Source: Gemmiger formicilis (GTDB lineage: Bacteria > Bacillota_I > Bacilli_A > RFN20 > CAG-826). Taken from it: DNA of 64,000 nt. A program made the position numbers and the translations under genes. The notes under the pieces were generated by a model, which saw nothing but the letters and a program-made list of their open reading frames with translations, was not told the origin of the DNA and made no database searches. Positions 1 through 31,218 of this stretch are shown here, one piece after another; positions within the stretch are counted from its first letter, which is position 1, and each line of letters starts with the position of its first letter. The DNA lies in assembly GCA_963612735.1 (NCBI GenBank), contig CAVDWX010000092.1, positions 3,439-67,438 of the forward strand. Direction: 5' to 3'.

Positions 1-54
1 CGATTTGATGGATTTAATGTTGTTTCATATAATTCATCTGGTGACATCTCTCCT
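1..54 (-). CDS. DNA topoisomerase II large subunit (GyrB / T4 gp39-60-like), exon 4 (partial, continues beyond window start)
   Basis: Minus-strand translation gives GEMSPDELYETTLNPSN, which aligns to GyrB ...[23 protein letters not shown] and continues the frame of exon 3 after intron removal. Confidence 0.55.
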
Positions 55-336
55 CGATTTTAATTCTGACTATTTATTCACTGATATAATACACTTTATA
101 TCAGGTTTGCTCTTTCCTATTACTTTGCCTTCGTTTCCTAAAAGCAATCTACGTACCAATAGTAGAAGTACTCCCTGCCTGTGGTCGGGGATAGTCGATA
201 CAGGGGATTATAAATTATTAATATTTATAACCTTCCCACGAGACTCGATATTTATATCTTACCCTCGTTAGCAAATCAAATTTTGATTTACCCCGCTGGT
301 TAGCGGAAAAGCAAATTATGGGCCAAAAGAGTGCTC
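55..336 (-). mobile_element. group I intron 3 in the topoisomerase gene (no ORF)
   Basis: It interrupts GyrB-like coding between RYKGL and GEM. The upstream exon ends in U and the intron ends in G. Its 5' part (cataatttgcttttccgctaaccagcggggtaaatcaaaatttgatttgctaacgagggtaag) and core (cctgtatcgactatccccgaccacaggcagg) are near-identical to the other two introns, and it shows R/S-like GACTA/TAGTC pairing elements. Confidence 0.55.
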
Positions 337-691
337 AGCCCCTTATATCTAGTTAACTTCACATTTTTATGATTTCGCATATACTTTTTAAATTCACTAC
401 TATCTTCATACCAATATTTCGCTTCTTTACCATTTATTGTTCTATATAAAGGTGAAACTGCGGCATAAACTTTACCTTGTTTAATTAATTCAGGCAGATG
501 ATGTAAGAATAATGTTAGTAATAATATTTCGATATGACGACCATCCGCGTCTGCATCAGTTAAAATTATGATACGATTATAACGTAAGTTATTAATATTG
601 AAATGGTCTCCGATACCGCAACCTAAACAAGTAAGAATATCTTTAATAATATCACTTTTGATTGCGTCTGATAGTTCAAGACTCGTGCAAT
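337..691 (-). CDS. DNA topoisomerase II large subunit, exon 3 (TOPRIM C-terminal part)
   Basis: Translation NCTSLELSDAIKSDIIKDILTCLGCGIGDHFNINNLRYNRIIILTDADADGRHIEILLLTLFLHHLPELIKQGKVYAAVSPLY...TRYKGL matches GyrB TALGCGIG...IIIMTDADVDGSHI...PLYK...IQRYKGL. Confidence 0.7.
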
Positions 692-2044
692 TTTTGATTT
701 TCTTTATTTTTTAATAAATCGACTATTTATTCACCGATATAAATCGGGTCTACTCTTTCGCATTGCTTAGTCTTCGTTTCCTAAAAACTAACCACGTATC
801 AATAGTGGCGCTACTCCCTGCCTGTGGTCGGGGATAGTCTGTACAGGTTTACATATGATTGTTGTAAAATTGTCTTAAATAACTATAACTTTTATTGTTG
901 GCTATATCACGTATAGATTGCTCACTTAAATTAAATTTTTTAGCAATTAAGAATATTGGAGTTTGTAATGCTAACTCATCGTATATTTGAAATACTTGCG
1001 GAATTGTTAATTTTCCTGTAATAATACGAAAAGTTCGAATTGGATATTGTTCATTTTCTTGTTTTCAATTTTCCCCAATATTAATGCGATAAACTATTTT
1101 ATAAGTATATAATGGATTTAGCGCACAAATATCTTTAATAGTTATTGGTTCCTTAAGTTTTTTAATAATAAATTTTGCATCTTCCAAAGTTATTTTATGA
1201 TTTCCAAAATCTGGACGGCAAGGAATATTACGTACGATATGTTTTCAACTTTTAAATCTATTAATGTCTTTAACTACGTCTATTGTAGTATTATATTTTT
1301 TTGCGATATCTACTATAGAAGTTTGAAGATTAAAAGTTAAATCATTAATAATATCATAAACTTGTTCGGTAGTTATAGTTGCTCGATAACTATTTTCACC
1401 TGATAGTTTTTGAGAAACTATTTTCTTTTGGATATTTTTACTTTGCATTTCTAGACGAATCGGATATTGAATTCCATCTTGAGCATATTCTTCTCCATAA
1501 TTAATATGTTTAATCATAGCAGAAGAAACGCCATAAATTTGACCTATATCTACATAACTTAATTCAGTGTCTTTTAATAAATCATAAATAACGATAATAT
1601 CTGATTCAGTAAAATGAAAATATGGTTGATTTTTTCTGTTTTGTCCTCCAGTTTGCATATTGTATCCATTTGGCATTAATGAATTAAATGTTTTAATATA
1701 AAAAATTTCTCGTAGATTTAATTCTTCAATTTTACATTCTTCTAAAACAGTAAAGGTAAAATTTTCTATTCCATATTTTCTAATAGCCGCATGTAATAAT
1801 GTCGTAGCTCCGTTTTTAGCATCATATAAATGTCTTCGATAGCGACACTCAATATTTTTTGATTGTCCGATATAAATTTTATTACTAATTATGTTTTTAA
1901 ATTGATAAATACCTATCATATGTTTTCCCACGAGACTCAGTATAATTAACTAAGTTATCCTTTCTACGTCTATTATACTTTACCCTCGTTAGCAAATCAA
2001 ATTTTGATTTACCCCGTTGATTAACGGAAAAGTAGATTATGAGG
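692..2044 (-). mobile_element. group I intron 2 in the topoisomerase gene, carrying a GIY-YIG homing endonuclease ORF
   Basis: It lies between mini-exon 2 and exon 3. Its 5' end (cataatctacttttccgttaatcaacggggtaaatcaaaatttgatttgctaacgagggtaaag) and 3' core (cctgtacagactatccccgaccacaggcaggg at 720-860) are paralogous to introns 1 and 3. The ORF at 849..1931 is embedded in a loop. Confidence 0.6.
849..1931 (-). CDS. intron-encoded GIY-YIG homing endonuclease (about 360 aa, TGA=Trp read-through)
   Basis: N-terminus MIGIYQFKNIISNKIYIGQSKNIECRYRRHLYD... is a GIY-YIG motif. The frame runs through TGA at 1245 to ...QFYNNHM, giving a long C-terminal DNA-binding extension like I-TevI family members. 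Confidence 0.8.
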
Positions 2045-2119
2045 CAAAATCTCACCTCTTAAAGGTAAAACTGCTTGACCAGCACCTTTTGTCTCTTTGC
2101 AACCTCCTGCAGCTGAATC
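2045..2119 (-). CDS. DNA topoisomerase II large subunit, mini-exon 2 (25 aa)
   Basis: Translation DSAAGGCKETKGAGQAVLPLRGEIL aligns with the GyrB TOPRIM segment [26 protein letters not shown]. It is flanked by intron-like sequence on both sides. Confidence 0.55.
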
Positions 2120-2385
2120 CGAGTACTGCAGCCTACTCGCTGACTATTTCTTCAGAAGGACTTTCCCTCTGTCTACTGTTTCGGTCTCTCAGACACTTCG
2201 TTTCCTAAAATGTCGACACGTATCAATAGTGTCCCTACTCCCCAACAACGGGGATAGTCGATACAGGTATGATGGCTTAACCACCTTCCCACGAGACTGG
2301 GCATATTTCTATGCTTTACCCTCGTTAGCCACTAATTAAGTGACCCCTTACGATAATAAGGTAAAATAGATAAGGGCAATTCGTT
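2120..2385 (-). mobile_element. group I intron 1 in the topoisomerase gene (no ORF)
   Basis: It separates ...ELFLTEG from DSAAGG. The exon ends in U and the intron ends in G. It contains gctaacgagggtaaagc, gagtctcgtggg and cctgtatcgactatcccc elements shared with introns 2 and 3. The in-frame stop immediately after the splice site is typical. Confidence 0.6.
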
Positions 2386-3673
2386 CACCCTCAGTCAAAA
2401 ATAATTCGGCATCAGAAAAGTCTGTGGCATCCGCAAGTTTAACCGGTAAGTCTTTTAAACTATTCATATTTTTCCCACCACGAGCAATTTTTTCTTGGGC
2501 TTCACGTTTACGTTGCGCGGCTTCTTCGGCTTTTTGTTCAATCATAATTTTATCAAGCACTTGTTTGGCTGCCTTCTTATCTAACACCATCTGACCAACG
2601 GCTTTACTACAAAAAGTTCGAGCAGATGGAGAGTTAAGAGTTAATTTTGTTTGTTCGCCAAATAGCGGACGTTCACTCATATGAATTGATAAAACTAAAA
2701 CTAAACCTTTACGAATAATATCTCCGCTTAGATTTTTATCTTTAATTAATTCCATTTCTTTTGCTAACTTATTTATATTGCTAGTAAAAGCAGTTTTCCA
2801 ACCAGTAACGTGTGTTCCATTATTTGGAGTATAACCTCCATTAACGAAACTATAAATTGTTTCATATGTGCGGTCGCAATAGCAAAATGCATATTCAACT
2901 TCACAAGTTTCACCGGCATCATTCTCTACTGTAGTATTAAAATAAAATGGGTCAGTTAATACTTTTAAATCGGCGGTTTTAATTTTTAACATATCTTTAA
3001 TACCATTAGTATAATAATAAGAAGCAGTTTCAATAACTTTCTTGTCGTCCATTACTGTTAAATTAAAACGGATACCATTATTAAGCAATGCGTGTAATTG
3101 TAATTCCTCCTTGATAGTTGGAATATCCCATTTTAAATTACCAAATACAGATGCATCTGGAATAAATGAGACAGTGCTCCCAGTCACATTAGTTTTAATA
3201 GGTTTAATAATTGGGTTAGTAAATACACCATTATTGACGGTAAAGATACATTGTTCTCCTTCTCGTGTTGATACTATTTCAAAGAATGTTGATAATGCAT
3301 TTGTAACAGTTGCACCTACACCATTTAATCCTAATGAGCTTTTATAATTACCTTGACCGGTAAATTTGCCTCCACTATGAAGATTAGTACACATCTCAAC
3401 AATTGCCCATTTACCTTCTTTATTGCGCTTAAAAGGTATACCACGACCATTATCTATTACAGATGCCATATTAGTAGTAGTGTTAATAGTGATAGTAATT
3501 TCTTTACCATAACCAGCCGCCGCTTCATCCATTGCATTGGCAATAATTTCAGTTAATAAGTGGTGCATGCCCTTAATATCGTTAGTGGCAATATACATTC
3601 CTATAGATTCTTTAACAGCATCTCGGTAATTTAAAGTTCTAATACTGTTTTCATCATATTTGACGTTATTCAT
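2386..3673 (-). CDS. DNA topoisomerase II large subunit, exon 1 (GHKL ATPase + transducer + start of TOPRIM)
   Basis: Carries the HATPase_c signature HHLLTEIIANAMDEA...IDNGRGIP and LHSGGKF, and ends ...KLADATDFSDAELFLTEG (GyrB LADC...ELYLVEG). Confidence 0.8.
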
Positions 3674-4442
3674 ATTTTTTTAATATTTCTCCTTTCATTT
3701 TAATAAAAAATTCTATTTGCTCATTATTTCAAGTATTTGGAAAAGTCCATCTACGTTCTCTTTTATGATAGATTGGCAAATGTTTCCAGTTTTGACCAGA
3801 TATAATGGAGACAATAGTTCTTTCTTTATAAGAAGAAAAATGCTCTATAATTTTTTTTCGTGGTCAAATTGTATATAATATTCTAATTTCAATTACATCT
3901 TGTTCATTAATAATATTTTGAGGATTTTTTTCTCCTAATTGACGAGTTTTTTCCTGTAAATGAACATATTGTTTTTCGTAAACTTCAGGCATAATATCTA
4001 AACGTACTTGTCCATTATAGACTTCAGCAATTAAATGTCTATCTAAATTAGGGAAAAATTGACGTTGAACTTCTGCTCCACTAGAATATTGTTGACTAGC
4101 ATAACATTCTCGAATTTTAATAATATCTTCATCTGTCAATAGTGACAAACTGTCTTTACTAGGACAAGAATAATATGACCCTCCAGGAGTTTGATTATAA
4201 CCATTTAAATAACTATTATAATATTGAATTCAATAAATCTCTCTTTCATTCAATTGTTCGCGAGGACATTCTTCAATAATTTCAAAAACAAAATTATTTA
4301 CACCTTCTTTTTTTATAGCATTATCAATGACACTATCTTGTCATCCTTTTAAATGAGAAGTTAAACGACGTTCTAATTCAATTGATTGCCCGATATATAT
4401 TTTATTATTAATTTTATTAGTAATTTTATAAATTCCAATCAT
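3666..4442 (-). CDS. free-standing GIY-YIG homing endonuclease (TGA read-through)
   Basis: Start MIGIYKITNKINNKIYIGQS is GIY-YIG. The frame runs through TGAs and ends 5 nt into the topoisomerase start codon region. The coding sequence includes the topoisomerase RBS. Confidence 0.7.
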
Positions 4443-4504
4443 ATGTATCTCCTTATACATTATAATATACACGCCATTAGATAAAATATCAAATTTTCCT
4501 TGTC

Positions 4505-4747
4505 TTACTTTCTCCTTTCATTTATACAATCTGCTATATCCTCTAAATCATTTTGATAATCATTATATGTTCCACAACACCATTGTGATATCATATGTGT
4601 AGCCGGATCTTCCCAAACTAAAGTATAACATTGCCCATAATCATCATAGTACAGCTCGAAACAAATGCCCTTACAAACTATTTCTTTCTCATAAGTAAAG
4701 ACACTATTGCATTGGTCTGCTAATAGTGGTAATTTATTTTTATCCAT
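4505..4747 (-). CDS. hypothetical small protein (80 aa, Cys-rich)
   Basis: Intact ORF in the early-region orientation. Confidence 0.4.
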   Translation of the reverse strand: MDKNKLPLLADQCNSVFTYEKEIVCKGICFELYYDDYGQCYTLVWEDPATHMISQWCCGTYNDYQNDLEDIADCINERRK

Positions 4748-4853
4748 ATCTTTATCCTTTCTTTAAAATAAAAGTTTTATATAACATATTGTTTAAAAAA
4801 TTAATGATTAATTGGTTTCAACACCCTTTCTTCATTTTTTCTTCTTACAATAT

Positions 4854-4882
4854 ATTATACAAAACTTTTTTCGATTTGTCAA
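4854..4882 (-). promoter_or_regulatory. sigma70 consensus promoter (TTGACA-17-TATAAT)
   Basis: Minus strand reads tttgacaaatcgaaaaaagttttgtataatat. Confidence 0.7.
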
Positions 4883-4982
4883 ATTTTTTTCTAAAGTTTT
4901 ACTCAGCACTGATAAAATGAAATAAAATTAGTTCAAATTTAATACTATTTTTCTTTCTCATCAAGCGCTTGGTGTTTTTGGT

Positions 4983-5500
4983 TTAAAAATTTAACAGCAT
5001 ATTCTCCACATTGAGTGGCGGCATCTTCGAATCAAGCGCCGTCATATGGTGCTCATTCCTTATTAGGGAACCAAGTGCGCAACCAATAACGAGTAGCACT
5101 AGGAATCGCAACGATAAGCGGGAATAACGGGCCGAATAAACAATTTTGAAAAGTATGGCCAAATTCGTGCCAATCAATTCCTTCAACAGTTGACTCTTGA
5201 TCTCGCAAGAACATTAATCCCATTTCACATCCACCTCACCAATCAGGACCTACGTTAATGCCGTAAATCCAATAGAATGGTTTAAAAGTAATTTTGTCAG
5301 GAATAAAAATTTTAACAATGGCAAGAATGACTGTAATAATGATGCCTAAAATCGTCATAATAATTCCCCACGTACAAGCAGTTAAATAATACAACCATCT
5401 GTGTTTTAAAACGAATTTAGTTCATTTTGCACACAAATTAAACATAAAATTGCCAATTTTTGAATGTTCATATAAAGGTTTAATTTCCATAATTTCTAAC
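4983..5500 (-). CDS. hypothetical membrane protein (TGA read-through, Trp-rich)
   Basis: Frame continues upstream of ORF 4983..5186 through several TGA codons. It encodes hydrophobic segments. The boundaries are approximate. Confidence 0.4.
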
Positions 5501-5506
5501 CTCCGC

Positions 5507-6166
5507 CTAATTTTTTTCATCTAAATAAATGTAACGATGTCCGTGGAATTTGTAGCCACGTCGTATCGCTCTGGAAATGTGAGTAGAAGGAGCATGATAT
5601 TGATCTGCAACACTTTTTACTGATGGGTAAATACGAATAATATCTCCAGTTTCGGATACTTCAGCTACTTGTCTATATTTTTTATTAAGAGGAACAGCAA
5701 TTTTTTCTTCTTTATTGAAACTCCAGAAAAACCCTCCTGTTTGACTAAAAATTCCTTTGCAAGTTTTTAAAATATTTTGATGTAAACAACCTGTTACACG
5801 TTCAGCTTCATTAGCGCTAACAAACTCATTAATGAAATTGCCTTGTAAATCGTATTGATAAACAGGTGTCTCTAAAAAATTTCCGCAGTCTCCTCCTTTA
5901 GTGCTATTATAACCATTGGTATAAGAATCATAATATTGAATGTAATAAATTTCTTTTTCATTTAATTTATCTTGAGGAATATTTTCTTCTATAGGTTCTA
6001 TTGAAAACTTGTCTATTCCATATGCACGCATTGCTCGATACAAATGAACATCTGAAAATTTACTATAACAACAATGCTGATCTCATCTTCTTTTTAATCG
6101 TTGAATGGTTTGCCCTATATACACTTTATCATTTACAGTGTTGGTAATTTTATAAATCATTCCCAT
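5507..6166 (-). CDS. free-standing GIY-YIG homing endonuclease
   Basis: N-terminus MGMIYKITNTVNDKVYIGQTIQRLKRRWDQHCC has W encoded by TGA in the conserved RW-x-x-H position. It overlaps the end of the permease gene by 17 nt. Confidence 0.75.
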
Positions 6167-7508
6167 TCTCATTCTTTTTGTCCTTTAAAATTAAATTCAA
6201 AAAGATACCAATAATCATAGCTAAAGCTACGCCAGTAAAAGTAAAATTACCAATTGGAACAAACAACCCTCCAACTCCCGAAATTAAAATAATAGAAACA
6301 ATTAAAGTATTTTTTGTATTTTCTAAATCAATCTTTCTCAATTCTTTCAATCCGCTAATGGCGATAAAACCATATAAAATTAATGCGCATCCGCCAAACA
6401 CACAATAAGGAATTGTTTGAACCCATCACATTAAAGGAGCAAATAGTCCTAAAATTATAGCTAAAATTGCGGCTCCAATAACCGGATATATACTTCCAAC
6501 CTTAGTAATTCCGATAACTGCGATATTTTCTCCGTAAGTAGTATTGCCCATACCACCAATAAAACCTCCTACAGCGGTGGCAATGCCATCACCCAAAGCT
6601 GTTTTGTCTAAACCGGGTTCTTCTAATAGATCTTTTTGAATAATATTAGATAAATTTAAATGATCTCCTATATGTTCGCAAAAAGCCACACAACTAACTG
6701 GAATTGCTATCAATAATATTTGAGGAATTTGACTTCAAGTAAAGTGATTATATTTAAAACCTTTAAAAGCCTCAATAAAAGAAAATTTAGGCAATCATTT
6801 CAATTTTGCACCAAAAGAAATCAATTGCATTGATTCATTTCCACAACTCTTTCCAATCAAGGTTAAAATTAAAGCCAATATGTATCCTCCTATAATAGCA
6901 ATTAAAAACGGCAATGTTTTGAGCAATCCTTTACCATAATAAGATAATAATGCAACAATTAACATTGTAAAGATAGCTACTAATAAAGATCAACCATTAA
7001 AATCGATTAATCCGTTTTGCATGCTCCAAGAAGTTGCAAATCCAGCGAGGCCTAAACCAATTAAAGTTACTACAGGACCTACAATAACGGGAGGTAAAAT
7101 TTTATGTAATATATTTGCACCAAATTTTTTAACTATTAAACTTAATAGCATATAAACTAAAGCTACAACAGTTAACCCTAAAATTAAAGCAATGTAATTA
7201 CCACCTGGTTCTTCAGAAGCTCCAAATCCCATAAATAAACAAGCCGACATAATGGGCATAAGGGCCGCGCTTGAACCTAAAAAAACAGGGCTTTTGAATT
7301 TAGTAATAAAAGCATAAATAATTGTTCCAATACCTGCGCTAATAATAGCAGCAGGAACCATTTCAAAACTTTGATAAGTTAAAATAGAAATTAAAGATGT
7401 AGCAACGAACATTGCCAAGCAGTGCTGAATACTATACAATATGATTTCTTTTTTAGAAGGTTTATCTTGAATATCATAAAGTAAATTCTTATTTTTATTC
7501 ATTTCCAT
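6150..7508 (-). CDS. uracil/xanthine permease (NCS2 family, UraA/PyrP-like)
   Basis: Three ORF fragments join in frame through two TGA codons. Contains EHIGDHLNL...ALGDGIATAVGGFIGGMGNTTYGENIAVIGITKV, a close match to the UraA core. Confidence 0.75.
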
Positions 7509-10209: not shown

Positions 10210-12333
10210 TTAAAATTTTGGTTTATATCTTACTAAACGCATATTTAGACTGTCAATATCGAAAATAGTCCTGCTGTATGTAAAAACTCATAATGAGTTA
10301 TCAAAAGTTTTTGATAGTGGTATTCAACTGATAGGATTTGAAAATCCGCTATATTCTGCAATTACTACATCTTTTTGGTCATCATAATCGTCTGGTATAT
10401 CGAACTTAAAGATACATTCGGTAAGTTGATCTCCTTCTTTTTTTTCAATTCTGTCTGTTGTTCATATGTCAATATCTCAATCTTTTTGAAAATTTTTACA
10501 TATAACAGGTTTTAAATATTGTTGATCTGATTCATATTCAAGATTATGTAAGGCCGCATAAAAGAAATTCTGTGAAACATAGGATCATAGACCTATGAAA
10601 GTCTGTCCTTTTTTTTGAAAAAGAGCATTATATGGTTCTCCACCTGAAGAAACATTTGTTTCCATTTGTCCTAAATTTTCATTTCATTTAAACTTACCTG
10701 TTTGGAGTGAATCATAGGTTCAATAATTGCCTACAAAATCATTAATTGTAAAACTCTGTTTCAAACCTTTATTTAAGGTTTGCATTAGTGGACAATAATA
10801 AGGAAAGTAACCAGGTTTTAAAGGACGAATACCTGAATAAAATTTTAAATATGATTGGTATCAACCTTTGTTAGCAGGCAATCATGCATAAGCAAAGCAA
10901 TAGCTCTCTCCGTTTTTACGATATTCATCAGAATTAATATCATCTACTTGTGGTTCAAAATCTTTTTCTTGAATTTGAGTTATTTTAATAATCGGTTCTT
11001 TGACAATCGTACAAAGTAAAGTGAATTTTAAAGAATCAGTACCGTTAGATGGATTTAAAGCACCATTGCCCACTACTACATATTTTGGTGTTGGCTCTTG
11101 AGTATTTTTGTATGTAGCATAACATTTATTATCAAAATTAATAGTTAAGATACGACTTTGAGATTCTAAAATTAGTTTTGATAATAAATAGTCTCGAAGA
11201 CTTTCTTCGCCTTGTATAATATGTTGATTAAGGTTATCTCGACCATGAATAAAATTTTCAAAATTTTCTCTTGGAGAGAGTAATAAAAACTTTCAATTTA
11301 CATCACTAAAGTCTAGTTGAACTTCTAATTTATCCTGAATACCTAAATAATGTCCAAGCTGAATTTGCATAGGAGTACTCCTTTCAGTTGAAATTGTTAC
11401 TCCTGCATTATTAGAAGCACTAAATTTACCTGAGGAATTGAAAGGATCAAATCCTCTAATACATTTTCACGTTCCCGGATCATGAGAACATAACAATAAA
11501 ACATCTTGTTCAACATTAAAATCACTAGAGGTCTGAAAAATATCGGTTGTATAAGAAAATTGATCAGTAGCTTTTAATTTTAACTTATCATCTTCAATAT
11601 TTGCAGTAAAACCTTTTCAATTATCTGCATTTGGGATATCAATAGCTATTCAAACTGGAGAACTTAAATGTCAATCAGTATAATAAAGATTTTGACCTTT
11701 TGAATCTTTATCTCGAATATCACTATAAGTATTTATTTTTTGATCTTCTTTTTCTGTTTTAGTCCAATTAATTAAATTAATTGCTTTTCCTCGTATTTGC
11801 ATAGTACCTCAATTTGATCGTTCGTACAAATTAGGATACAGAATATTAGGTATATTTGTATTTTTATGATATACAGTTCGATTAGCATCGGGAGTAACGT
11901 AATTTCTAGAATATGCATTTTGTAATAAGCTTCTATTCTGCCAACGATAAGTATCTAATCATAAAGTTTTGCTAGCAAATCCTACATCATCAAAGTAATA
12001 AGTGGTACGAATGCTTCCTGATGATGAACCAACAGGCTTTAAAATAAAAACACCATCTTCTTTATACACTATTTGAACAGAACTTCCATTGGCATTTTTA
12101 AATTTTAATAATTCACAAAAGGGATCTTTTGCAGTAATTTCTATTTGGCTTCCTTGACCACTTACAACTGTGATGCTGTTATTTTTTATATCGCTATTAT
12201 CAAAATATCCTTTAAATTCAACTTTTTGAAAAGAGAATGTTTTTTGAATTAAATCAGGCAATTCTTCTTTAGTTTTATTTTCAAACAAATTAGTTGTCTG
12301 TTGATTGTCATAATAAATATACTCATCAGCCAT
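10210..12333 (-). CDS. large hypothetical protein (about 707 aa, many TGA=Trp codons)
   Basis: Single continuous frame from MADEYIYYDNQ... to ...NMRLVRYKPKF when TGA is read through. No recognisable domain. Confidence 0.5.
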
Positions 12334-12345: not shown

Positions 12346-13692
12346 CTAAATCCCATAAGGATTTATTTGATAGCGACGCAATAAGTCTTCCAACACTGGC
12401 CATGATATCACTAATAACCCATCACGAGCACGAGTCATCGCAACATAAGCCACATTTAAATCTTCGCTATCTTTAATTGCTGTATCAACAACTACTACAT
12501 TATCATATTCCAAACCTTTTGCTTGGTGAATAGTTGTTGTATTAATCCAACCTAATTCTTGTATACCCTTAACTTGTTTATTGGTTCTACATAAAATCAT
12601 TGGATTGGTTTGTTTTAAAAAATCGTATACTGCTTGAATTGGTTGTTGTAACATTACCACTTGGTTACCATTCACTATCTCCCAACCATTTCTAAAAGGG
12701 TCTATTACTATTACTCGACCGCCTTCTCCGCGATAACAATGAACAGATGAGTAATTACAAAAATCATGTTGTGCGATATAACAATCCCCCCATAGATTAT
12801 TATTTAATTCCTCATAAACGGTAGTAGCATAGTTAATAATTTCTTGATAGCTACGATAATTATATTTTAACTTATAAATGTCAAAGCCTTCTCCAAGTTT
12901 ATTAAATACTTCACCATCAGCCCCGCGGAATTCGTAGATAGATTGCCAACTATCTCCAATAAAGAACTTTTTCTTCGCAAGCACTTTTTCAAATATCTTG
13001 AACTGCACAGAGTCAACATCTTGAAATTCGTCAACAAAAAGAGCGTCAATAGTTGTAATATCTTCCTTGTAAGCCTCTAACATATTATATAAATATAAAG
13101 GATAATCAGTAAAATCATATAAACCATTATTTCTTTTATACATAATATAACGTTCTTCTAATGCATTTAATGTGCGGCGAAAATTATCGGTAATATCCAT
13201 TTTCTTACTACCAGTAATATAAGTATACAATATACCAATATTAACTGATTTCACACGAGCAGTACGTAAATAATTTTCTACTATAAATTCTAGTATACTT
13301 TTAATTTGATTTTCTTGAAGCACTTCTACGGCAAAATGATATTTTCTACCTAAAGCTTCAAGTAAGTTCCGACTCCAAACGTGAATAGTAGTAACCTCTA
13401 CATCAAACACGCCCATTTCTTGAAGTCGTTGTTCCATTTCAGCGCGAGCCGCACGTGTAAAAGTAATAGCACAAATGCGGTCTGCCAAGTTTTCATATCT
13501 ATAATTTGCAACGGCGGAAATTAACGACCGTGTTTTCCCCGACCCCGCGGGCGCTTTAATTAATATATTTGCTCCATCACTTTGAACTGCGGCACTTTGA
13601 CTATCATCTAACTTAGCCAAATTTTCTTGCAGATGCTGTTCAAAGTTGATGTCATTATTTCTTTTTAATGTTAGTTCTTTGTTCATCTGCAT
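12346..13692 (-). CDS. UvrD/Rep/PcrA-family DNA helicase
   Basis: Motif I APAGSGKT and motif Ia ITFTRAARAEM. Confidence 0.75.
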   Translation of the reverse strand: MQMNKELTLKRNNDINFEQHLQENLAKLDDSQSAAVQSDGANILIKAPAGSGKTRSLISAVANYRYENLADRICAITFTRAARAEMEQRLQEMGVFDVEVTTIHVWSRNLLEALGRKYHFAVEVLQENQIKSILEFIVENYLRTARVKSVNIGILYTYITGSKKMDITDNFRRTLNALEERYIMYKRNNGLYDFTDYPLYLYNMLEAYKEDITTIDALFVDEFQDVDSVQFKIFEKVLAKKKFFIGDSWQSIYEFRGADGEVFNKLGEGFDIYKLKYNYRSYQEIINYATTVYEELNNNLWGDCYIAQHDFCNYSSVHCYRGEGGRVIVIDPFRNGWEIVNGNQVVMLQQPIQAVYDFLKQTNPMILCRTNKQVKGIQELGWINTTTIHQAKGLEYDNVVVVDTAIKDSEDLNVAYVAMTRARDGLLVISWPVLEDLLRRYQINPYGI

Positions 13693-13704
13693 CCTTCCAT
13701 TTCT

Positions 13705-14247
13705 TTACCTTCTTCTTATTTCTTTAATTTTTTCTTCATACTCTCTTTTTATTTTATCCAACTTTGGATCGGTTTGCAAATACGCCGCCAAAAAATCTGC
13801 CGCCGCAGTACAGTCAATTAAATCCGTTTGGCTGTCTTCTTCGCTATAAAATGGTTTAGTAAAATACTTGTCTAATATTGGGTCACTTACTTCAGTAGCC
13901 ACTTCGTCAATTTTATCAAGCCATAAGTCTTTATAAGGCAAAGCCTCGATGTTATCTTGAAAAGTGAAAACAGCATCAAATTTATATTTCTTCGGCAAAT
14001 TACCAAAAATAATTAAATCTTCATCTGCGCCGCAACTTTCGTAAACTTTTTCTGTTACCATTAAAGTTTCAAAATAAGCTTCAAATGGAGTAAGATTAGT
14101 TTTAATGGCTTTTAAATATGAACTATACATATTCATACCAAACACTTTTTCTTTTACTTCATGCGGCAACTTACTATAAATTGCATAAGTTATATCTTCA
14201 TGTGTGTCATAGACTGGCATTAACACTAATATCTTCATTTTAATCAA
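13705..14247 (-). CDS. hypothetical protein
   Basis: Intact 180-aa ORF packed between helicase and RNase H. Confidence 0.45.
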   Translation of the reverse strand: MIKMKILVLMPVYDTHEDITYAIYSKLPHEVKEKVFGMNMYSSYLKAIKTNLTPFEAYFETLMVTEKVYESCGADEDLIIFGNLPKKYKFDAVFTFQDNIEALPYKDLWLDKIDEVATEVSDPILDKYFTKPFYSEEDSQTDLIDCTAAADFLAAYLQTDPKLDKIKREYEEKIKEIRRR

Positions 14248-14734
14248 GCACCTCTAATCTTTTTCTATTTTTTTGGGCAAGCAAATCTGCATAATTATTC
14301 CATTTTTCATCGTCTGTTAAATTGGTTTTACCATGTGCCTTAACTTTACTAATTTCAAAGCGGAAAAATTTGCCCTTCAACTTAATATAAAGTGCAATAA
14401 TGCGACGCCATAAATCTTGATTCTTGACTTCTTGGCGATCCGCAGTGCGCCAACCGTTTTGCATCCAACGTTGATACCAACCTTCGGCAAAGCAGTTGGA
14501 GATATAAGCACTATCAACATAAATAGTAATATCCACATGATGAGAAACGATGGTGTCGATATTTTCCAAAGCGCTTAAAAATGCCATTAATTCCATTCGA
14601 TTGTTAGTTGAGTATGGCTCATATCCTTGTTGAGTATCAATAATTTCGCCATCTTCGACACAAATCGCGGCCCAACCACCCATCATGGTTTTAGAACTAA
14701 ACGCTCCATCTGTATAAAATTTTAATGTTCGCAT
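14240..14734 (-). CDS. rnhA: ribonuclease HI
   Basis: YTDGAFSS...TNNRMELMA...VDSAYISNC...DLW match RNase H1 catalytic motifs. Confidence 0.8.
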   Translation of the reverse strand: MRTLKFYTDGAFSSKTMMGGWAAICVEDGEIIDTQQGYEPYSTNNRMELMAFLSALENIDTIVSHHVDITIYVDSAYISNCFAEGWYQRWMQNGWRTADRQEVKNQDLWRRIIALYIKLKGKFFRFEISKVKAHGKTNLTDDEKWNNYADLLAQKNRKRLEVLD

Positions 14735-15252
14735 ACTTCAATTCCTTCCACAGAATTGTTAGGGTCTTCATGAACTAAACCAAACTTTAAATAAGTTTCA
14801 TTTTGGAAATAGCCTCGCACTATAATATTAAATTTATTAATCTTAGTTTGATAGTTAATTGCATTTTTAAGCCAATTTAATGGCATATATACCTGTTCTT
14901 TTAATGAAATTGGCACATCTAAACGAGATTCACGGTCACGTTTGTTTTCAGCATCAATTAAATGATTAAAAATGATAGAAATAATTTGTTGCCCAAAACT
15001 AACAAAATCATCTACTAAAATTTCACCATCATCATAAGATATATCTTCACAATTTAATTTAATATTAAAGATAGTCGGTACATCATCTTCTAAATTTGCA
15101 AAAAGAGGTTGTAATCCATCTGTTAATTTCGCACGAAATTGACTTAGCGGCATATCTAAATCGGCATTAGAAATATTGATTACACAGTTAGGCACATGTA
15201 CAAAATCCGCCGTTTGTTCCACTTTTAGTTTATCTAAATCTAAATATTCCAT
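14722..15252 (-). CDS. hypothetical protein
   Basis: Intact 176-aa ORF. Confidence 0.4.
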   Translation of the reverse strand: MEYLDLDKLKVEQTADFVHVPNCVINISNADLDMPLSQFRAKLTDGLQPLFANLEDDVPTIFNIKLNCEDISYDDGEILVDDFVSFGQQIISIIFNHLIDAENKRDRESRLDVPISLKEQVYMPLNWLKNAINYQTKINKFNIIVRGYFQNETYLKFGLVHEDPNNSVEGIEVCEH

Positions 15253-15255
15253 ATA

Positions 15256-15891
15256 TTAATCCTCCTCTCCTTTCTCTTGTTCTTCTAATTTACGAAGCAC
15301 AGTAAAAATACTGACTTCATTCCATACATCGTTGTATGCATTATGAGCATTATGCAAGTAATAACCAAATTGACTCGCCAAGTCATTAGCGCTCACATGG
15401 TCATTGCGGTTCAAAATGCGCTTAGCATTATTAAAAGTGCAATAACCATCAATGGGCTTCCACGCACCATTTTCATCGGCATATTGAGACAAGTTGATCC
15501 CATTACGATTTAAAACCAAGCGGTCATTTCTTAACCCATGACTAATAATCATAATATCTTTCATAGGAATATCGCCTAGTACATCTTCAAAAACTAAAGT
15601 CTTTAACGACGAAAGCGGAATCCCATTTTCATTTAAAAAGGAATTACTAATTCCAGTATATTCGGTAAAAGGATATCCCACTTTAGCGCATACATATTGG
15701 TTAATTGAAGTTTGTAATTGATAACTCCCATCTGTATCAATGCGTTTAAATAGTAAACCTGCAAACTGAATAAGATGATTATTGTCAAATTCAATATCAA
15801 TAAAAAGTAAGTATGGATGATTTTCATTGTAACACTTAATAATCATAATCAAAATCTTCCTTTCTAATTTTATTCTATTATAGTATAACAA
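15256..15891 (-). CDS. DEDD-family 3'-5' exonuclease
   Basis: FIDIEFDN (Exo I-like) and HNAHNAYNDV (Exo III HxAxxD). Confidence 0.55.
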   Translation of the reverse strand: MLYYNRIKLERKILIMIIKCYNENHPYLLFIDIEFDNNHLIQFAGLLFKRIDTDGSYQLQTSINQYVCAKVGYPFTEYTGISNSFLNENGIPLSSLKTLVFEDVLGDIPMKDIMIISHGLRNDRLVLNRNGINLSQYADENGAWKPIDGYCTFNNAKRILNRNDHVSANDLASQFGYYLHNAHNAYNDVWNEVSIFTVLRKLEEQEKGEED

Positions 15892-15910: not shown

Positions 15911-15980
15911 TAAGAGAAATTGAAATTTTGAAAATTTTAAAGTAAATTATTATATATAGTGAAGTTTAAGCTTGTTAAAA

Positions 15981-16009
15981 TTGACAGCGGAAAAATTATT
16001 TATTATACT
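15981..16009 (+). promoter_or_regulatory. sigma70 promoter for the plus-strand tail-fibre block
   Basis: TTGACAgcggaaaaattatttatTATACT, followed by RBS aggaggaagg and the ATG at 16062. Confidence 0.6.
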
Positions 16010-16061
16010 ATTATGAACAATAGAAGGAAAAAGAAAAATTTTCTTCTTAGGAGGAAGGCAA

Positions 16062-19738: not shown

Positions 19739-20944
19739 ATGAGTATTACATCTGTTTATAAATACACGAACGATAGTTGAGTAAAACTAAAAGCCTTTCA
19801 AGCAACTAGTGATGGAAATTGAAATCAAGTTAGTTCTACTACTACTCCTATAACTAGTACCGTTGATGCCTTTTTAGTAGATAGCGCTACAAATTATGCC
19901 TACTTTACCACTATGCTTGGAGGCGGCAATGGCACTTATACTGCAACCACAACTCTTGGTTCCGTAAGCATTGAAGGCAATGTCTTAGAATTATATGTTT
20001 ACTCTGCCGGAAGTGGTACTTGTACAATTACTTCAGGTGAAGCAACATTAGAAATTCCAATATATGTCGGATATATTGAATGCTTAGTAAAAGATACTCT
20101 AATTACTATGTGAGATCGCACGCAAAAGCCAATTCAAGATATTCGAAATGGCGATTATGTGCTTTCATTAAATGAAAAAGGTGAGGAAGTACCTGGATAC
20201 GTCTATTACGCAGATGGCGATCAATGCAAGACAGGTCAACATTATGACCAATTTACCTTCTCGGATGGCACTGTTGTGAAAGTTGTTCATCGTCATAGGT
20301 TTTACAACAATTTTGATAGAACATTTACTCATCTGGATAATTTTTATATCGGAGATAAATGTTATAAACAAGACGGGACTTGGGTTACTTTGGTAGGAAA
20401 AATTGATCGTGCCGAAGAAGGTATTATTCCTCATTATACAATTTTCTGTAATAATAATACATATTTTGCTAATGGGCTACTTTGCGGTAATCGTTTTAGT
20501 AAAAAGGTAAAATTGATTGATCCAACCATTCCGGCTGAACCTACTTATAGTTGACAACCAGTGGCACGAAAATTTCCAGATGACTTTAAAGTATCAAAAA
20601 TTTGAGTAGACAGTAAAGATAAAGATATTTATATTGAAAAGAACGGTCAAGCGATTAATTATATTCAAACTGACAACAATGAAGCCAAAATGTTTTTATA
20701 TCAATATAATGGTGAAAAAGATTATCATAATATTACTTTAGAAGAATTAGATACAAACGCTGAATTGGTATTAGAAATTACTGAATATGACACGCAATAT
20801 GATATAACCAATTTAATTTATAATTATATTTTATATTATGAATACAAAATAGACCGCATTTCTCCAATAGCAACAATAAGTATTGAGAATGCGGGGGGGG
20901 TGTCAACATTGAGATGAGGAGGCAGCAGTCCTTTAGGAAAATAA
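19739..20944 (+). CDS. tail fibre-like protein with internal intein/Hint module (about 401 aa)
   Basis: Single frame through TGAs. Hint module CLVKDTLITMWDRTQ...IFCNNN, then conserved TYFANGLLCGNRFSKK (paralogous to the C-terminus of 16062..18845), then a further 120-aa C-terminal region. Confidence 0.55.
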
Positions 20945-23007: not shown

Positions 23008-23034
23008 AGAGGCCATTAAGGTCTCTTTTAATTT
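23008..23034 (+). terminator. rho-independent terminator
   Basis: agaggccattaaggtctc hairpin followed by TTTTAATTT, directly after the last plus-strand fibre-block gene. Confidence 0.6.
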
Positions 23035-23127
23035 GGCAGGGGATCCAGGAGTCGAACCCGGTTCGGAGGTTTGGACGCTCCTACGATGATTTTGAAGATC
23101 ACTGGCCAGAACCGTTAGCCCAATCCC
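23034..23127 (-). tRNA. tRNA with anticodon UCA (reads UGA) and long variable arm
   Basis: Minus strand GGGGATTGG-GCTA-ACGGTTC-TGGC-CA-GTGAT-CTTCAAA-ATCAT-[GTAGGAGCGTCCAAACCTCCGAA]-CCGGG-TTCGACT-CCTGG-ATCCCT-G-CCA. The T-loop is TTCGACT, the discriminator is G, CCA is encoded, the anticodon loop is 7 nt with U33 and A37, and the variable arm is about 23 nt. Confidence 0.6.
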
Positions 23128-23162
23128 CTGTAAGGGATGAGTACCTATCGTCGCAAATTAGT

Positions 23163-26891: not shown

Positions 26892-26924
26892 ACTTCTTAC
26901 CTCTCCTAATAAAAAAGTGACCCG

Positions 26925-27060
26925 CAACGGCTTGCACGTCTACCATATCTCTCCGCCGTTCTCCGACTTTGCTGGTAGTCTCTAACGTTTCGAAGGTCCC
27001 ATTTACTCCGTCGAGACTTGCGGGCTTCACCACTCATGCTACCACACATCGCGGACTACC
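26925..27060 (-). promoter_or_regulatory. GC-rich structured 5' leader with terminator-like stem plus U-run immediately before the RBS (attenuator/riboswitch-like)
   Basis: Transcript from the promoter at about 27070-27100 (TTGATA-17-TATAAT). Contains ggtagtc...gactacc pairing and a long-range cccgcaa...ttgcggg stem ending in tcacTTTTTT, followed by the RBS. Confidence 0.4.
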
Positions 27061-28326: not shown

Positions 28327-28392
28327 GCTTCTTGCATCCTTTCATGAATCGGGTAAGCAGGTGGTGGTAAACCCCACCACCCAAAAAGTAAA

Positions 28393-28842: not shown

Positions 28843-28853
28843 ACATCCACCTC

Positions 28854-29977: not shown

Positions 29978-29984
29978 CCTTGGT

Positions 29985-30058: not shown

Positions 30059-30067
30059 TTGGAGAGC

Positions 30068-31206: not shown

Positions 31207-31218
31207 AATAATTCCTCC

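What the first reader, a model, noticed from the sequence alone, without database searches (positions are those of the whole stretch)
1..3673. Topoisomerase II large-subunit gene split into four exons by three paralogous group I introns, one carrying a GIY-YIG homing endonuclease
The GyrB-like protein can be reconstructed collinearly from the minus strand: exon 1 (...ELFLTEG), a 75-nt mini-exon (DSAAGGCKETKGAGQAVLPLRGEIL, matching GyrB [26 protein letters not shown]), exon 3 (NCTSLEL...LGCGIG...ILTDADADGRHI...RYKGL) and exon 4 (GEMSPDELYETTLNP...). The three intervening sequences share near-identical 5' segments (...cttttccg(c/t)taa..cggggtaaatcaaaatttgatttgctaacgagggtaa) and 3' cores (cctgtatcgactatcccc...). 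Each has U at the upstream exon end and G at the intron 3' end. The middle one encodes a roughly 360-aa GIY-YIG endonuclease. Three related group I introns clustered within about 300 codons of one essential gene, with a 25-codon mini-exon between two of them, suggests intron duplication or repeated homing into one gene.
Basis: partly seen in the sequence, partly recalled or inferred. Interest (0 to 1): 0.65.

Follow-up and report, generated by a model that had tools for sequence, protein, structure and literature searches.

The report
Three self-splicing introns in phage gyrB
A phage gene for the B subunit of a DNA gyrase-type topoisomerase is interrupted three times within 145 codons by related group I introns, one of which carries its own homing endonuclease; this is a well-supported new example of a known phenomenon, not a new kind of element.

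Summary
On the minus strand a GyrB/ParE-like gene is split into exon 1 (3673-2387), a 66-nt mini-exon (2119-2054, not 75 nt), exon 3 (701-337) and exon 4 (54-1, which runs off the window). The three intervening sequences are 267, 1352 and 282 nt long. The spliced product aligns in one stretch with S. pneumoniae ParE (E 3e-109). It is also collinear with five intron-less homologues from viral metagenomes.

Each intervening sequence has the anatomy of a T4 td-like (IA2-type) group I intron. This includes a U.G pair at the 5' splice site, a guide sequence pairing with both flanking exons, a terminal G, and the P3/P7 pseudoknot core with P7.1 and P7.2. Helices covary across about 20 relatives. A covariance model built from this family finds the T4 td core (E 6e-4).

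Rfam finds nothing, but it also misses td, so that negative says nothing. Intron 2 carries a 356-aa GIY-YIG endonuclease in its P6 loop, readable only if two TGA codons mean Trp. The window is a TGA-recoded phage. Introns 2 and 3 are close paralogues (80%); intron 1 (61%) belongs to a lineage specific to the Toprim "EG" codons. Multi-intron phage genes are already known, so interest is moderate.

The parts
2387..3673 (-). gyrB/parE-like exon 1 (429 codons, ...ELFLTEG). It ends with U2387, inside the Toprim 'EG' motif.
   Evidence: ORF; Pfam HATPase_c and DNA_gyraseB; 100% identical in two independent Logan assemblies.
2120..2386 (-). Intron 1, 267 nt, no ORF. P1 2392-2387/2377-2372; P10 2119-2115/2382-2378; P3 2370-2365/2177-2172; P4 2325-2321/2295-2291; P7 2259-2254/2147-2142; P7.1, P7.2, an extra hairpin, P8, P9; last base G2120.
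   Evidence: All helices fully paired. Covariance model R1 hit 2140-2267, 133.8 bits. An empty site is present in L004-L008.
2054..2119 (-). Exon 2, a 66-nt mini-exon (DSAAGGCKETKGAGQAVLPLRG).
   Evidence: Splice sites fixed by P1/P10. The same 66-nt exon lies between two introns in L022. ParE alignment.
702..2053 (-). Intron 2, 1352 nt. P1 2058-2054/2045-2041; P10 701-696/2051-2046; P3 2036-2031/754-749; P6 stem 1923-1915/859-851 enclosing the ORF; P7 839-834/726-721; last base G702.
   Evidence: R1 hit 719-847, 132.6 bits. nhmmer finds the two halves separately.
849..1919 (-). Intron-encoded GIY-YIG homing endonuclease, 356 aa if TGA = Trp. The start codon lies in the 5' strand of P6 and the stop directly follows the 3' strand. 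In-frame TGA codons at 1247-1245 and 1067-1065.
   Evidence: Pfam GIY-YIG E 5.7e-10. PHROG 7168 'homing endonuclease' covers residues 1-297 and so spans both TGA codons. 42% identical over 284 aa to the endonuclease of a gyrA intron in L018.
337..701 (-). Exon 3 (KIKNCTSLEL...LGCGIG...LTDADADGRHI...RYKG + CT of the Leu codon). There is no in-frame ATG/GTG/TTG for about 110 codons.
   Evidence: Pfam Toprim.
55..336 (-). Intron 3, 282 nt, no ORF. P1 341-337/324-320; P10 54-48/331-325; P3 315-310/111-106; P7 196-191/73-68; last base G55; no P9 hairpin.
   Evidence: R1 hit 66-204, 124.3 bits.
1..54 (-). Exon 4, partial ((L)GEMSPDELYETTLNPSN...). The gene continues beyond the window; about 55 codons are missing by comparison with homologues.
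   Evidence: Pfam DNA_gyraseB_C. Full-length homologues are 642-650 aa.
3666..4442 (-). Free-standing GIY-YIG endonuclease gene (258 aa, 5 in-frame TGA) that overlaps the gyrB start codon. It is a possible trans-acting mobiliser of the ORF-less introns; this is inference only.
   Evidence: PHROG homing-endonuclease families. Called as a 258-aa GIY-YIG product on L001. 33% identical over its full length to the endonuclease of a site-3 intron in L016.
23034..23129 (-). tRNA with anticodon UCA (reads UGA). This is context: it would be needed to translate the intron endonuclease through its two TGA codons.
   Evidence: ARAGORN; cloverleaf with a long variable arm.

Best explanation
The region is one phage gene for a GyrB/ParE-type topoisomerase B subunit, transcribed as a precursor that carries three td-like (IA2-type) group I introns. 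Each intron folds into a ribozyme whose internal guide sequence pairs with the last 5-6 nt of the upstream exon (P1, with a U.G wobble at the cleavage site) and with the first 5-7 nt of the downstream exon (P10). Guanosine-initiated transesterification, followed by exon ligation after the terminal G, removes the intron and restores the reading frame. The restored sequence includes the Toprim motifs EG|DSA, LPLRG|K and the C-terminal RYKGL|GEM.

Intron 2 also encodes an I-TevI-like GIY-YIG homing endonuclease, looped out of P6. Its expected role is to cut intron-less gyrB alleles of co-infecting relatives so that repair copies the intron in. Its two in-frame TGA codons mean it can be made only when UGA is decoded as Trp in this recoded phage.

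Introns 1 and 3 have no ORF. They most likely spread passively, by co-conversion with intron 2 (66 and 365 bp away), or with help from the free-standing GIY-YIG gene next to gyrB.

Shown here: gene collinearity, splice-site anatomy, RNA architecture with covariation, and endonuclease family. Inferred: actual self-splicing, endonuclease target, and how the ORF-less introns move.
For: - Collinearity: one-stretch alignment with ParE, E 3e-109, no gaps at the junctions. Single tblastn HSPs over residues 6-590 in five intron-less homologues, with contiguous DNA at all three sites.
- Guide sequences differ by site and match the local exons. P1 is GAGGGU/GCCCUU, GAGGU/GCCUC and GGGCU/GGCCC. P10 is GAUUC/GAAUU, AAAAUC/GAUUUU and AGGAGAG/CUCUUUU, all fully paired.
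- In relatives, P10 changes together with synonymous exon changes: L025 GACUC/GAGUU, L019 GAUAGUGC/GCACAAUU, L021 GAUUCC/GGAAUU.
- The core helices P3, P4, P5, P6, P7, P7.1, P7.2, P8 are fully paired in all three introns.
- P3 shows several double compensatory variants: UCUACU/AGUAGA, UUUGCU/AGCAAA, UUCACU/GGUGAA, CCACCU/GGGUGG.
- Pair counts on 15 sequences: 92.6% paired, against 78% when shuffled and about 43% when slid; 19 pairs changed on both sides. On 25 model-aligned sequences: 95.4% against 75% and about 38%.
- Covariance model R1, built from this family's P7-to-P7' core, matches the experimentally established T4 td intron core end to end (L030 1102-1185, 26.9 bits, E 6e-4). Shared core strings include GACUAUCCC, GGGGAGUAGGG, CGAAAC and AUAGUC.
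- Endonuclease: Pfam GIY-YIG; PHROG homing-endonuclease profiles span both TGA codons.
- TGA = Trp: 9 of 20 aligned window TGA codons face W in relatives. Greedy ORF coverage is 0.896 with TGA as sense against 0.822 under the standard code. A tRNA with anticodon UCA is present.
- The same family interrupts gyrB, gyrA, another topoisomerase II and a primase in other contigs, including a second gyrB with three introns.
Against: - No RNA data: splicing is inferred from structure.
- Rfam's group I model gives no hit even at E<=10, though the td control also fails.
- The architecture departs from td. There is no P2 between P1 and P3; instead two covarying hairpins lie between the 5' strand of P3 and J3/4.
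- P4 is invariant, so it has no covariation support.
- Intron 3 has almost no P9.
- For intron 1 a junction shifted by one base (G|...G|) is also frame-compatible.
- The endonuclease target and the mobility of introns 1 and 3 are untested.
- The td match of R1 is modest, and the model's E-values are rough.
Confidence: 0.88

Rival explanations
1. The introns are decayed relics and the gene is a pseudogene, or is expressed as fragments that reassemble, as with T4 gp39/gp60 split by the MobA element.
For: The T4 topoisomerase large subunit is split within Toprim and works as two polypeptides (paper read). Introns 1 and 3 lack endonuclease genes. Rfam finds nothing.
Against: Every core helix is intact in all three introns, and each guide sequence fits its own exon context. 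The exons carry no stops or frameshifts. The 22-codon exon 2 and exon 3 have no start codon or ribosome-binding site of their own; exon 3 has no in-frame ATG/GTG/TTG for about 110 codons. Exon 1 runs into a stop 12 codons into the intron. Splitting EG from DSA would break the catalytic motif.
Confidence: 0.05
2. The arrangement is an assembly artefact: repeated intron sequence caused a chimeric join of variants with and without introns.
For: Two Logan contigs identical to the window both stop at 2239, inside the conserved core of intron 1. This shows that assemblers struggle here.
Against: The three introns are only 61-80% identical. Exon order is perfectly collinear and in frame. Two independent runs give 100% identical exon 1 and intron 1 5' half. 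Other contigs carry the same site-1 plus site-2 pair with the same mini-exon (L022), or three introns in gyrB (L023).
Confidence: 0.02
3. The three introns arose by duplication within this gene.
For: Introns 2 and 3 share 80% core identity and an identical 31-nt stretch in the 5' domain.
Against: Intron 1 is 61-62% identical to introns 2 and 3, but 75%, 70% and 68% identical to site-1 introns in other phages (L021, L019, L025). The nearest relative of intron 2 is a gyrA intron (L024, 85%), and its endonuclease is closest to that of a gyrA intron. The best fit is at least two independent acquisitions, plus one recent move between sites whose 5' exon sequences differ by a single base (GAGGU versus GAGAU).
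Confidence: 0.15

Closest known systems
T4 td intron with I-TevI (subgroup IA2, GIY-YIG endonuclease)
   Same: The P7, P7.1, P7.2, P3', P8, P7' core has near-identical strings, and this family's covariance model detects it. The GIY-YIG endonuclease ORF is looped out of P6. The start codon is buried in a helix. Both are phage genes of DNA metabolism.
   Different: td has P2 between P1 and P3. Here the 5' strand of P3 follows P1 directly, and two hairpins sit between P3 and J3/4. Most members here have an extra hairpin with the conserved loop UUUUAGGAAACGAAG between P7.2 and P3'. The host gene differs. The endonuclease carries in-frame TGA codons.
Staphylococcus phage Twort orf142, with three group I introns in one gene and exon skipping (Landthaler & Shub 1999; cited from my own knowledge, paper not held)
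   Same: Several related group I introns are packed into one phage gene and separated by short exons.
   Different: The host gene differs. Here one intron carries an endonuclease, the phage is TGA-recoded, and nothing has been tested experimentally.
Intron endonuclease of TGA-recoded 'Agate' gut phages (Borges et al., bioRxiv 10.1101/2021.08.26.457843)
   Same: A group I intron endonuclease sits in an early gene of a TGA-to-Trp phage and uses TGA for Trp, which is proposed to delay endonuclease synthesis until late in infection.
   Different: That paper does not name the host gene or describe several introns in the text I read. Whether this window belongs to that clade was not tested.
Jug jumbo gut phages (Sci Adv 2026, PMC12880540)
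   Same: Essential genes (terL, nrdD, DNA polymerase) are split into 2-4 pieces by group I introns and endonucleases, and splicing was confirmed by metatranscriptome reads.
   Different: Those introns were detected with published subtype models and average about 206 nt. Topoisomerase IV is listed there as an intact core gene.
MobA/gene 60 cassette in the T4 topoisomerase large subunit, and inteins in bacterial GyrA/GyrB
   Same: Mobile elements target the Toprim domain and other catalytic motifs of type IIA topoisomerases.
   Different: Function is restored differently in those cases: by split subunits plus ribosomal bypass, or by protein splicing. Here it is restored by RNA splicing.
Unannotated introns in cultured phages: Lactococcus phage AM1 gyrB (KY554768) and Enterococcus phage EF1 polC-like gene (MF001358)
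   Same: They have the same intron architecture, including the placement of the P3 5' strand before two hairpins. AM1 interrupts gyrB in the same Leu codon as intron 3 (one base earlier) and carries a GIY-YIG ORF.
   Different: There is a single intron per gene. The records annotate the pieces as separate 'DNA gyrase' or hypothetical CDSs. These phages use the standard code.

Membership tests
Group I intron | 5' splice site follows a U that forms a U.G wobble with the internal guide sequence (P1) | tested here: met
   U2387.G2377, U2054.G2045 and U337.G324. P1 is 5-6 bp, fully paired, and differs with each exon context.
Group I intron | The guide sequence also pairs with the start of the 3' exon (P10), and the intron ends in G | tested here: met
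   P10 is paired 5/5, 6/6 and 7/7, directly 5' of the P1 strand. Terminal bases are G2120, G702 and G55. P10 covaries with exon changes in relatives.
Group I intron | Conserved core P3-P4-P5-P6-P7-P8 with a P3/P7 pseudoknot | tested here: met
   All helices are paired in all three introns. Covariation is seen in P3, P5, P7 and P8. P4 is invariant.
Group I intron | Match to Rfam RF00028 | tested here: inconclusive
   No hit at the gathering threshold or at E<=10. The T4 td intron is not hit either, so the test has no power for this subgroup.
Group I intron | Self-splicing with a guanosine cofactor | not testable with these tools
   Needs in vitro transcription and splicing, or RNA-seq.
Subgroup IA2 (T4 td / Twort type) | P7.1 and P7.2 between P7 and the 3' strand of P3 | tested here: met
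   Both hairpins are present and covary, for example CCCC/GGGG versus CUCC/GGAG, and GACAC/GUGUC versus UCUAC/GUAGA.
Subgroup IA2 (T4 td / Twort type) | Sequence and structure similarity to an established member | tested here: met
   Model R1 aligns to the td core over its full length, 26.9 bits, E 6e-4 in 284 kb. The sequence-only profile gives E 1e-4 on the td locus.
Subgroup IA2 (T4 td / Twort type) | P2 hairpin between P1 and P3, with P3 directly followed by J3/4 and P4 | tested here: not met
   The 5' strand of P3 lies 1-4 nt after the guide sequence. Two covarying hairpins follow before GCUAA-P4. td has the canonical order. I could not establish whether this variant has been described before.
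GIY-YIG homing endonuclease (I-TevI-like) | N-terminal GIY-YIG catalytic domain plus a C-terminal DNA-binding region, encoded in a peripheral intron loop | tested here: met
   Pfam PF01541 E 5.7e-10, with weak helix-turn-helix matches. PHROG 7168 covers residues 1-297. The ORF lies in the P6 loop.
GIY-YIG homing endonuclease (I-TevI-like) | Cleaves the intron-less allele near the insertion site | not testable with these tools
   Candidate substrates are available: L004-L008 site 2.
Type IIA topoisomerase B subunit (GyrB/ParE) | GHKL ATPase, transducer, Toprim (EGDSA, DxDxD) and C-terminal tail in one polypeptide | tested here: met
   Four Pfam domains in the expected order, collinear with the ParE and GyrB structures. 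The partner A subunit is not in the window and was not tested.
TGA-to-Trp recoded phage (genetic code 4) | In-frame TGA at Trp positions, a gain in coding density, and a UGA-reading tRNA | tested here: met
   29 of 70 ORFs carry in-frame TGA. 9 of 20 aligned TGA codons face W. Coverage is 0.896 against 0.822. A tRNA-UCA is present.

The most novel reading that the evidence does not exclude
These introns may represent a distinct, so far uncatalogued structural subclass of td-like group I ribozymes. Its features would be: no P2; two hairpins inserted between P3 and J3/4; an extra hairpin with a conserved UUUUAGGAAACGAAG loop; and, in site-1 members, a loop-to-3'-exon helix beyond P10. This subclass would specialise in the catalytic-motif codons of Toprim and topoisomerase genes. 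It occupies the GAGGGU 'EG' codons in three non-orthologous genes (GyrB, another topoisomerase II, a DnaG-like primase), plus LPLRG|K, DADV|DG and KGL|GE in GyrB and the active-site Tyr codon in GyrA. It would move between sites by changing one or two guide-sequence bases.
Probability: 0.3. Interest if true: 0.6.

Novelty: new member of a known kind. Interest (0 to 1): 0.4.

Why it matters
- It adds gyrase/topoisomerase IV subunit genes to the list of phage genes colonised by group I introns. A 2014 review of bacterial group I introns names no such case.
- Standard annotation misses this whole family. Rfam gives no hit here, and the same family goes unannotated in cultured Lactococcus and Enterococcus phage genomes, where the gene pieces are filed as separate CDSs.
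- The relatives form a natural series: the same ribozyme sits at five or more sites in four Toprim/topoisomerase genes, with guide sequences that track each site. This could be used to test how group I introns reach new sites (reverse splicing versus endonuclease retargeting).
- The same series could also test how neighbouring introns separated by a 22-codon exon avoid exon skipping.
- The TGA-interrupted endonuclease is a further example of recoding as a timing switch.

Tried and rejected
- Rfam at the gathering threshold and at E<=10 gave no group I hit. I rejected this as evidence after the td control also failed.
- Megablast of 1-3720 against cultured phages found nothing. Distant blastn found only short core matches.
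They give G before the intron and A as its last base, and no P1/P10.
- P3 as GGGG (after hairpin A) pairing with CCCC (after P7) was rejected. In phage AM1 the CCCC is CGGC while the GGGG is unchanged, and CCCC covaries with the local GGGG instead, which makes it P7.1.
- A P3 5' strand directly upstream of J3/4 was rejected, because that segment is invariant while P3' varies.
- The MAFFT whole-intron alignment misaligns P3, P6, P8 and hairpin B. Those helices were therefore checked per sequence by anchored folding.
- A full-length covariance model was not attempted because of the calibration limit. Only the 3' core was modelled.
- Look-ups of the intron ORF in the contig index failed. The code-11 query I sent (1245-1922) was mis-set by one codon and found nothing.
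- A search for the window's first bases in IMG/VR, meant to recover the rest of the gene, found nothing.
- L011 and L012 from the pattern scan are chance matches inside a coding region.

Full report
**The gene**

The minus strand of 1-3673 carries a reading frame that starts at 3673 behind a Shine-Dalgarno-like AAAGGAG and runs 429 codons to ...ELFLTEG. Joining 3673-2387, 2119-2054, 701-337 and 54-1 gives a 590-aa product. Its Pfam domains are HATPase_c, DNA_gyraseB, Toprim and DNA_gyraseB_C, in the order expected for a type IIA topoisomerase B subunit.

The product aligns as a single stretch with S. pneumoniae ParE (4juo_C residues 33-622, E 3e-109). All three junctions are continuous in that alignment: elfltegdsaagg/ELYLVEGDSAGGS, lplrgkiknct/LPLRGKVINTA and rykglgemspd/[11 protein letters not shown]. 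So this is a bacterial-type GyrB/ParE homologue. The gene runs off the window. Full-length homologues are 642-650 aa, so about 55 codons are missing.

**Empty sites in relatives**

Six IMG/VR contigs encode relatives with 68-72% identity. In five of them (L004-L008) the whole of residues 6-590 is one tblastn segment, and the DNA is contiguous at all three positions. L003 has an insert only at the first position. The inserts are therefore optional elements at precise positions: after codon 429 (EG|DS), after codon 451 (LPLRG|K) and inside codon 573 (CT|A of Leu in KGL|GE). All three lie within 145 codons.

**Correcting the middle junctions**

That keeps the frame, but it puts G before the intron and A at its end. 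Moving both junctions 9 nt upstream gives three things at once:
- U2054 at the end of the exon, paired with G in a 5-bp P1 (GAGGU/GCCUC);
- G702 as the last intron base;
- a perfect 6-bp P10 between the first exon 3 bases (AAAAUC) and the bases directly 5' of the P1 strand (GAUUUU).

The mini-exon is therefore 66 nt (22 codons). Contig L022 has the same 66-nt exon between two introns of this family, with the same GAGGU|GA... junction.

**Are they group I introns?**

Rfam gives no hit in the window at the gathering threshold, and none in 1-6500 at E<=10. As a control I ran the same search on the T4 td intron locus and on related loci, and td is not found either. The negative result is therefore uninformative, and the structure had to be worked out directly.

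In each intron the following helices are fully paired:
- P1, with a U.G wobble at the splice site;
- P10;
- P3;
- two hairpins (A and B);
- P4 (ACGAG/CUCGU), P5 and P6;
- P7 (GACUAU/AUAGUC), P7.1 and P7.2;
- an extra hairpin with the loop UUUUAGGAAACGAAG;
- the 3' strand of P3, then P8 and the 3' strand of P7;
- a short P9 in introns 1 and 2.

The order P7, P7.1, P7.2, P3', P8, P7' matches T4 td, as do strings such as GACUAUCCC, GGGGAGUAGGG, CGAAAC and AUAGUC.

**Relatives and covariation**

Pattern scans of viral and metagenome collections, plus blastn of cultured phages, brought in about 20 further members.
- On a plain MAFFT alignment of 15 sequences, 37 pairs in eight helices are 92.6% paired. 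The figure is 78% when partners are shuffled and about 43% when they are slid. Nineteen pairs have changes on both sides.
- On 25 sequences aligned to a covariance model of the 3' core, the figures are 95.4%, 75% and about 38%. That alignment is fitted to the model and so leans towards it.
- Helices that MAFFT misaligns were checked per sequence. P3 occurs as UCUAUU/AGUAGA, UCUACU/AGUAGA, UUUGCU/AGCAAA, UUCACU/GGUGAA, CCACCU/GGGUGG and UCUGCU/GGUAGA. Hairpins A and B, P5, P6 and P8 differ in sequence but keep pairing.
- The guide sequence tracks its exons. At the same site, L025 has exon GACUC with guide GAGUU, L019 has GAUAGUGC with GCACAAUU, and L021 has GAUUCC with GGAAUU.

The covariance model R1, built from ten family members, finds exactly three places in the window: 2140-2267, 719-847 and 66-204, at 124-134 bits. 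It also aligns over its full length to the T4 td core (L030 1102-1185, 26.9 bits, E 6e-4). I take membership in the td-like IA group as established on structure. Catalysis itself is untested.

**A structural departure from td**

In td the order is guide sequence, P2 hairpin, P3 (UCUAUC), UAA, P4. Here the covarying 5' strand of P3 lies 1-4 nt after the guide sequence. Hairpins A and B then follow before GCUAA and P4.

An alternative P3, formed by GGGG after hairpin A and CCCC after P7, is excluded by phage AM1 and by the CUCC/GGAG variants, which show that CCCC pairs locally as P7.1. The same layout occurs in an Enterococcus phage EF1 intron. I could not determine from the papers available whether this layout has been described before.

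**The endonuclease and the genetic code**

Intron 2 holds an ORF from ATG 1919 to TAA 849. Its start codon lies in the 5' strand of a 9-bp P6 stem, and its stop directly follows the 3' strand. Under the standard code it ends at TGA 1247-1245. Reading that TGA and TGA 1067-1065 as Trp gives 356 aa, with ...NRFKSWKH... and ...IGENWKQ.... Pfam finds GIY-YIG, and a PHROG homing-endonuclease profile covers residues 1-297, across both TGA codons.

The whole window supports TGA = Trp:
- treating TGA as sense raises greedy ORF coverage from 0.822 to 0.896 with fewer ORFs;
- 29 of 70 ORFs carry in-frame TGA;
- 9 of 20 window TGA codons that align with relatives face Trp;
- there is a tRNA with anticodon UCA.

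Borges et al. described this situation for TGA-recoded 'Agate' phages. There, an intron endonuclease in an early gene prefers TGA for Trp, and they propose that this delays its synthesis. gyrB itself has no TGA.

**Relationship among the three introns**

Over 224 well-aligned columns, introns 2 and 3 are 80% identical, while intron 1 is 61-62% identical to either.
- The nearest relatives of intron 1 are introns at the same EG|DS position in other genomes: L021 75%, L019 70%, L015 69%, L025 68%.
- The nearest relative of intron 2 is a gyrA intron (L024, 85%). That intron is inserted in the Tyr codon of AAMR|YTE, and its 5' exon (GAGAU) differs by one base from site 2 (GAGGU), with guide GUCUC against GCCUC.
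- The intron 2 endonuclease is also closest to that of the gyrA intron (42% over 284 aa).

The simplest history is an older site-1 lineage plus a second lineage that has recently moved among site 2, site 3 and gyrA.

Introns 1 and 3 have no ORF. Since they lie 66 and 365 bp from the intron 2 site, co-conversion during homing of intron 2 is a plausible way for them to travel. A free-standing GIY-YIG gene overlaps the gyrB start (3666-4442). It is 33% identical over its full length to the endonuclease of a site-3 intron in L016. This raises the possibility of trans (collaborative) homing as reviewed in PMC3984707. Both ideas are inference.

**The wider family**

- L023 carries three introns in its gyrB: at site 1, at a fourth site (DADV|DG in the Toprim DxD motif) and at site 3.
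- L003 has a second member in a DnaG-like primase, at VIYEG|EKS, with the same exon GAGGGU and guide GCCCUU as gyrB site 1.
- Several contigs of 200-260 kb have it at LLVEG|DSA of a different topoisomerase II.
- Lactococcus phage AM1 has an unannotated member with a GIY-YIG ORF in gyrB, one base from site 3. The record lists two 'DNA gyrase' CDSs and a hypothetical protein.
- In half of the site-1 introns, including intron 1, the loop after P7 is complementary to exon positions +6/+7 onward: CUGCAG/CUGCAG here, GCUAGC/GCUAGU, UUGGCAGU/GCUGCCGA and UUGACUGC/GCAGUCGA elsewhere. Five of ten sequences show a run of 6 bp or more, and 0 of 2000 shuffles reach that. The meaning is unknown. It could help select the correct 3' splice site when the next intron is only 66 nt away.

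**Rival explanations**

- A pseudogene, or a set of separately translated fragments, is unlikely. All ribozyme helices and all exons are intact, and exons 2 and 3 have no translation starts.
- An assembly artefact is unlikely. The order is collinear, the introns are only 61-80% identical, two independent runs give identical sequence for 2239-3797, and other contigs show the same arrangement. Both of those Logan contigs do break inside the intron 1 core.

**Novelty and score**

Several group I introns in one phage gene is a known pattern: Twort orf142 (from my own knowledge) and the Jug phages, where terL and nrdD are split into 2-4 pieces and splicing is confirmed. A TGA-recoded intron endonuclease has also been described. 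Toprim is a known target of other mobile elements, namely T4 MobA and the GyrA/GyrB inteins.

I found no report of group I introns in phage gyrase genes. The family escapes Rfam, and its 5' domain is unusual. I rate it a new member of a known kind, with interest 0.4. I give a 0.3 chance that the family proves to be a distinct structural subclass specialised on Toprim and topoisomerase motifs.

Noticed in passing
whole window, e.g. 10210-12333 (16 in-frame TGA), 25290-26927 (9), 15972-18845 (4): The phage reads TGA as Trp. 29 of 70 ORFs carry in-frame TGA. Many replication-type genes (gyrB, 12346-15891, 27136-36479) carry none. 9 of 20 aligned TGA codons face W in relatives.
   Followed up: partly
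23034-23129 (-): A 96-nt tRNA with anticodon UCA, a long variable arm and an encoded CCA end. ARAGORN calls it tRNA-SeC, and Rfam's tRNA model does not reach its threshold. It is presumably the UGA suppressor, but a long-variable-arm (type II) tRNA is not what a Trp-inserting tRNA would be expected to look like.
   Followed up: partly
3666-4442 (-), 5507-6172 (-), 51818-52885 (-): Two free-standing GIY-YIG endonuclease genes lie within 2.5 kb upstream of gyrB, and one overlaps its start codon. A third ORF has a coiled-coil N-terminal part and a GIY-YIG-like C-terminal part (no Pfam hit at E<=1e-3). All three contain in-frame TGA.
   Followed up: partly
15972-18845 (+) C-terminus; 19739-20944 (+) residues about 113-250: Hint / pretoxin-HINT (intein-like) domains occur in two adjacent large tail-like ORFs. 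One is C-terminal (PF07591 E 1e-8). The other is internal (PF01079 E 9e-5, below the curated cut-off).
   Followed up: partly
L003 11282-11521; L017 1121-1362: Two diverged site-1 introns have A, not G, directly before exon 2 (..AUA|GAUUC). Either the terminal base is A, or both junctions are shifted by one base so that the 5' exon ends in G instead of U. Neither option is canonical.
   Followed up: no
L026 / L013 (5' junction GAAGGA|AAAAUCG): The splice-site pair in P1 is A-U instead of U.G. Exon U has become A and guide G has become U, relative to the close relative L027.
   Followed up: no
L023 (reverse strand) 1-1240 and about 2070 onward: A second gyrB with three introns, including one at a fourth site (DADV|DG of the Toprim DxD motif). 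Its gyrA also stops being readable right after HPHG and is followed by an unrelated ORF, which suggests yet another insertion.
   Followed up: partly
L003 20686-21076: A family member sits in a DnaG-like primase at the Toprim EG motif (VIYEG|EKSVLK). It has the same exon hexamer GAGGGU and guide GCCCUU as gyrB site 1.
   Followed up: partly
L018 12553-13715; L024 19-291: A gyrA/parC intron sits inside the active-site Tyr codon (AAMR|YTE). To my knowledge this is the position where mycobacterial GyrA inteins sit, so it may be an intron-intein coincidence. Not checked against intein data.
   Followed up: no
L028 (Lactococcus phage AM1 KY554768, 53329-54309 of the record); L029 (Enterococcus phage EF1 MF001358): Cultured-phage genomes carry unannotated members of this intron family. 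AM1 gyrB is filed as two 'DNA gyrase' CDSs plus a hypothetical protein (a GIY-YIG endonuclease). The EF1 polC-like gene is likewise split.
   Followed up: partly
window 2239: Two Logan contigs from different runs (SRR13434609, SRR13434675) are 100% identical to the window, and both end at 2239, inside the conserved core of intron 1. This is probably an assembly break caused by sequence shared between introns, or by intron-plus and intron-minus variants in the sample.
   Followed up: no
2131-2126 with 2112-2107 (intron 1), and equivalents in L015, L021, L025, L027: The loop after P7 (L9) is complementary to 3' exon positions +6/+7 onward and changes together with the exon sequence. This may be an extra 3'-exon recognition helix beyond P10.
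   Followed up: partly
L030 (T4 td locus): Rfam release 15 does not report the textbook td group I intron even at E<=10 with permissive filters. Rfam-based screens will therefore miss phage IA2-type introns.
   Followed up: yes
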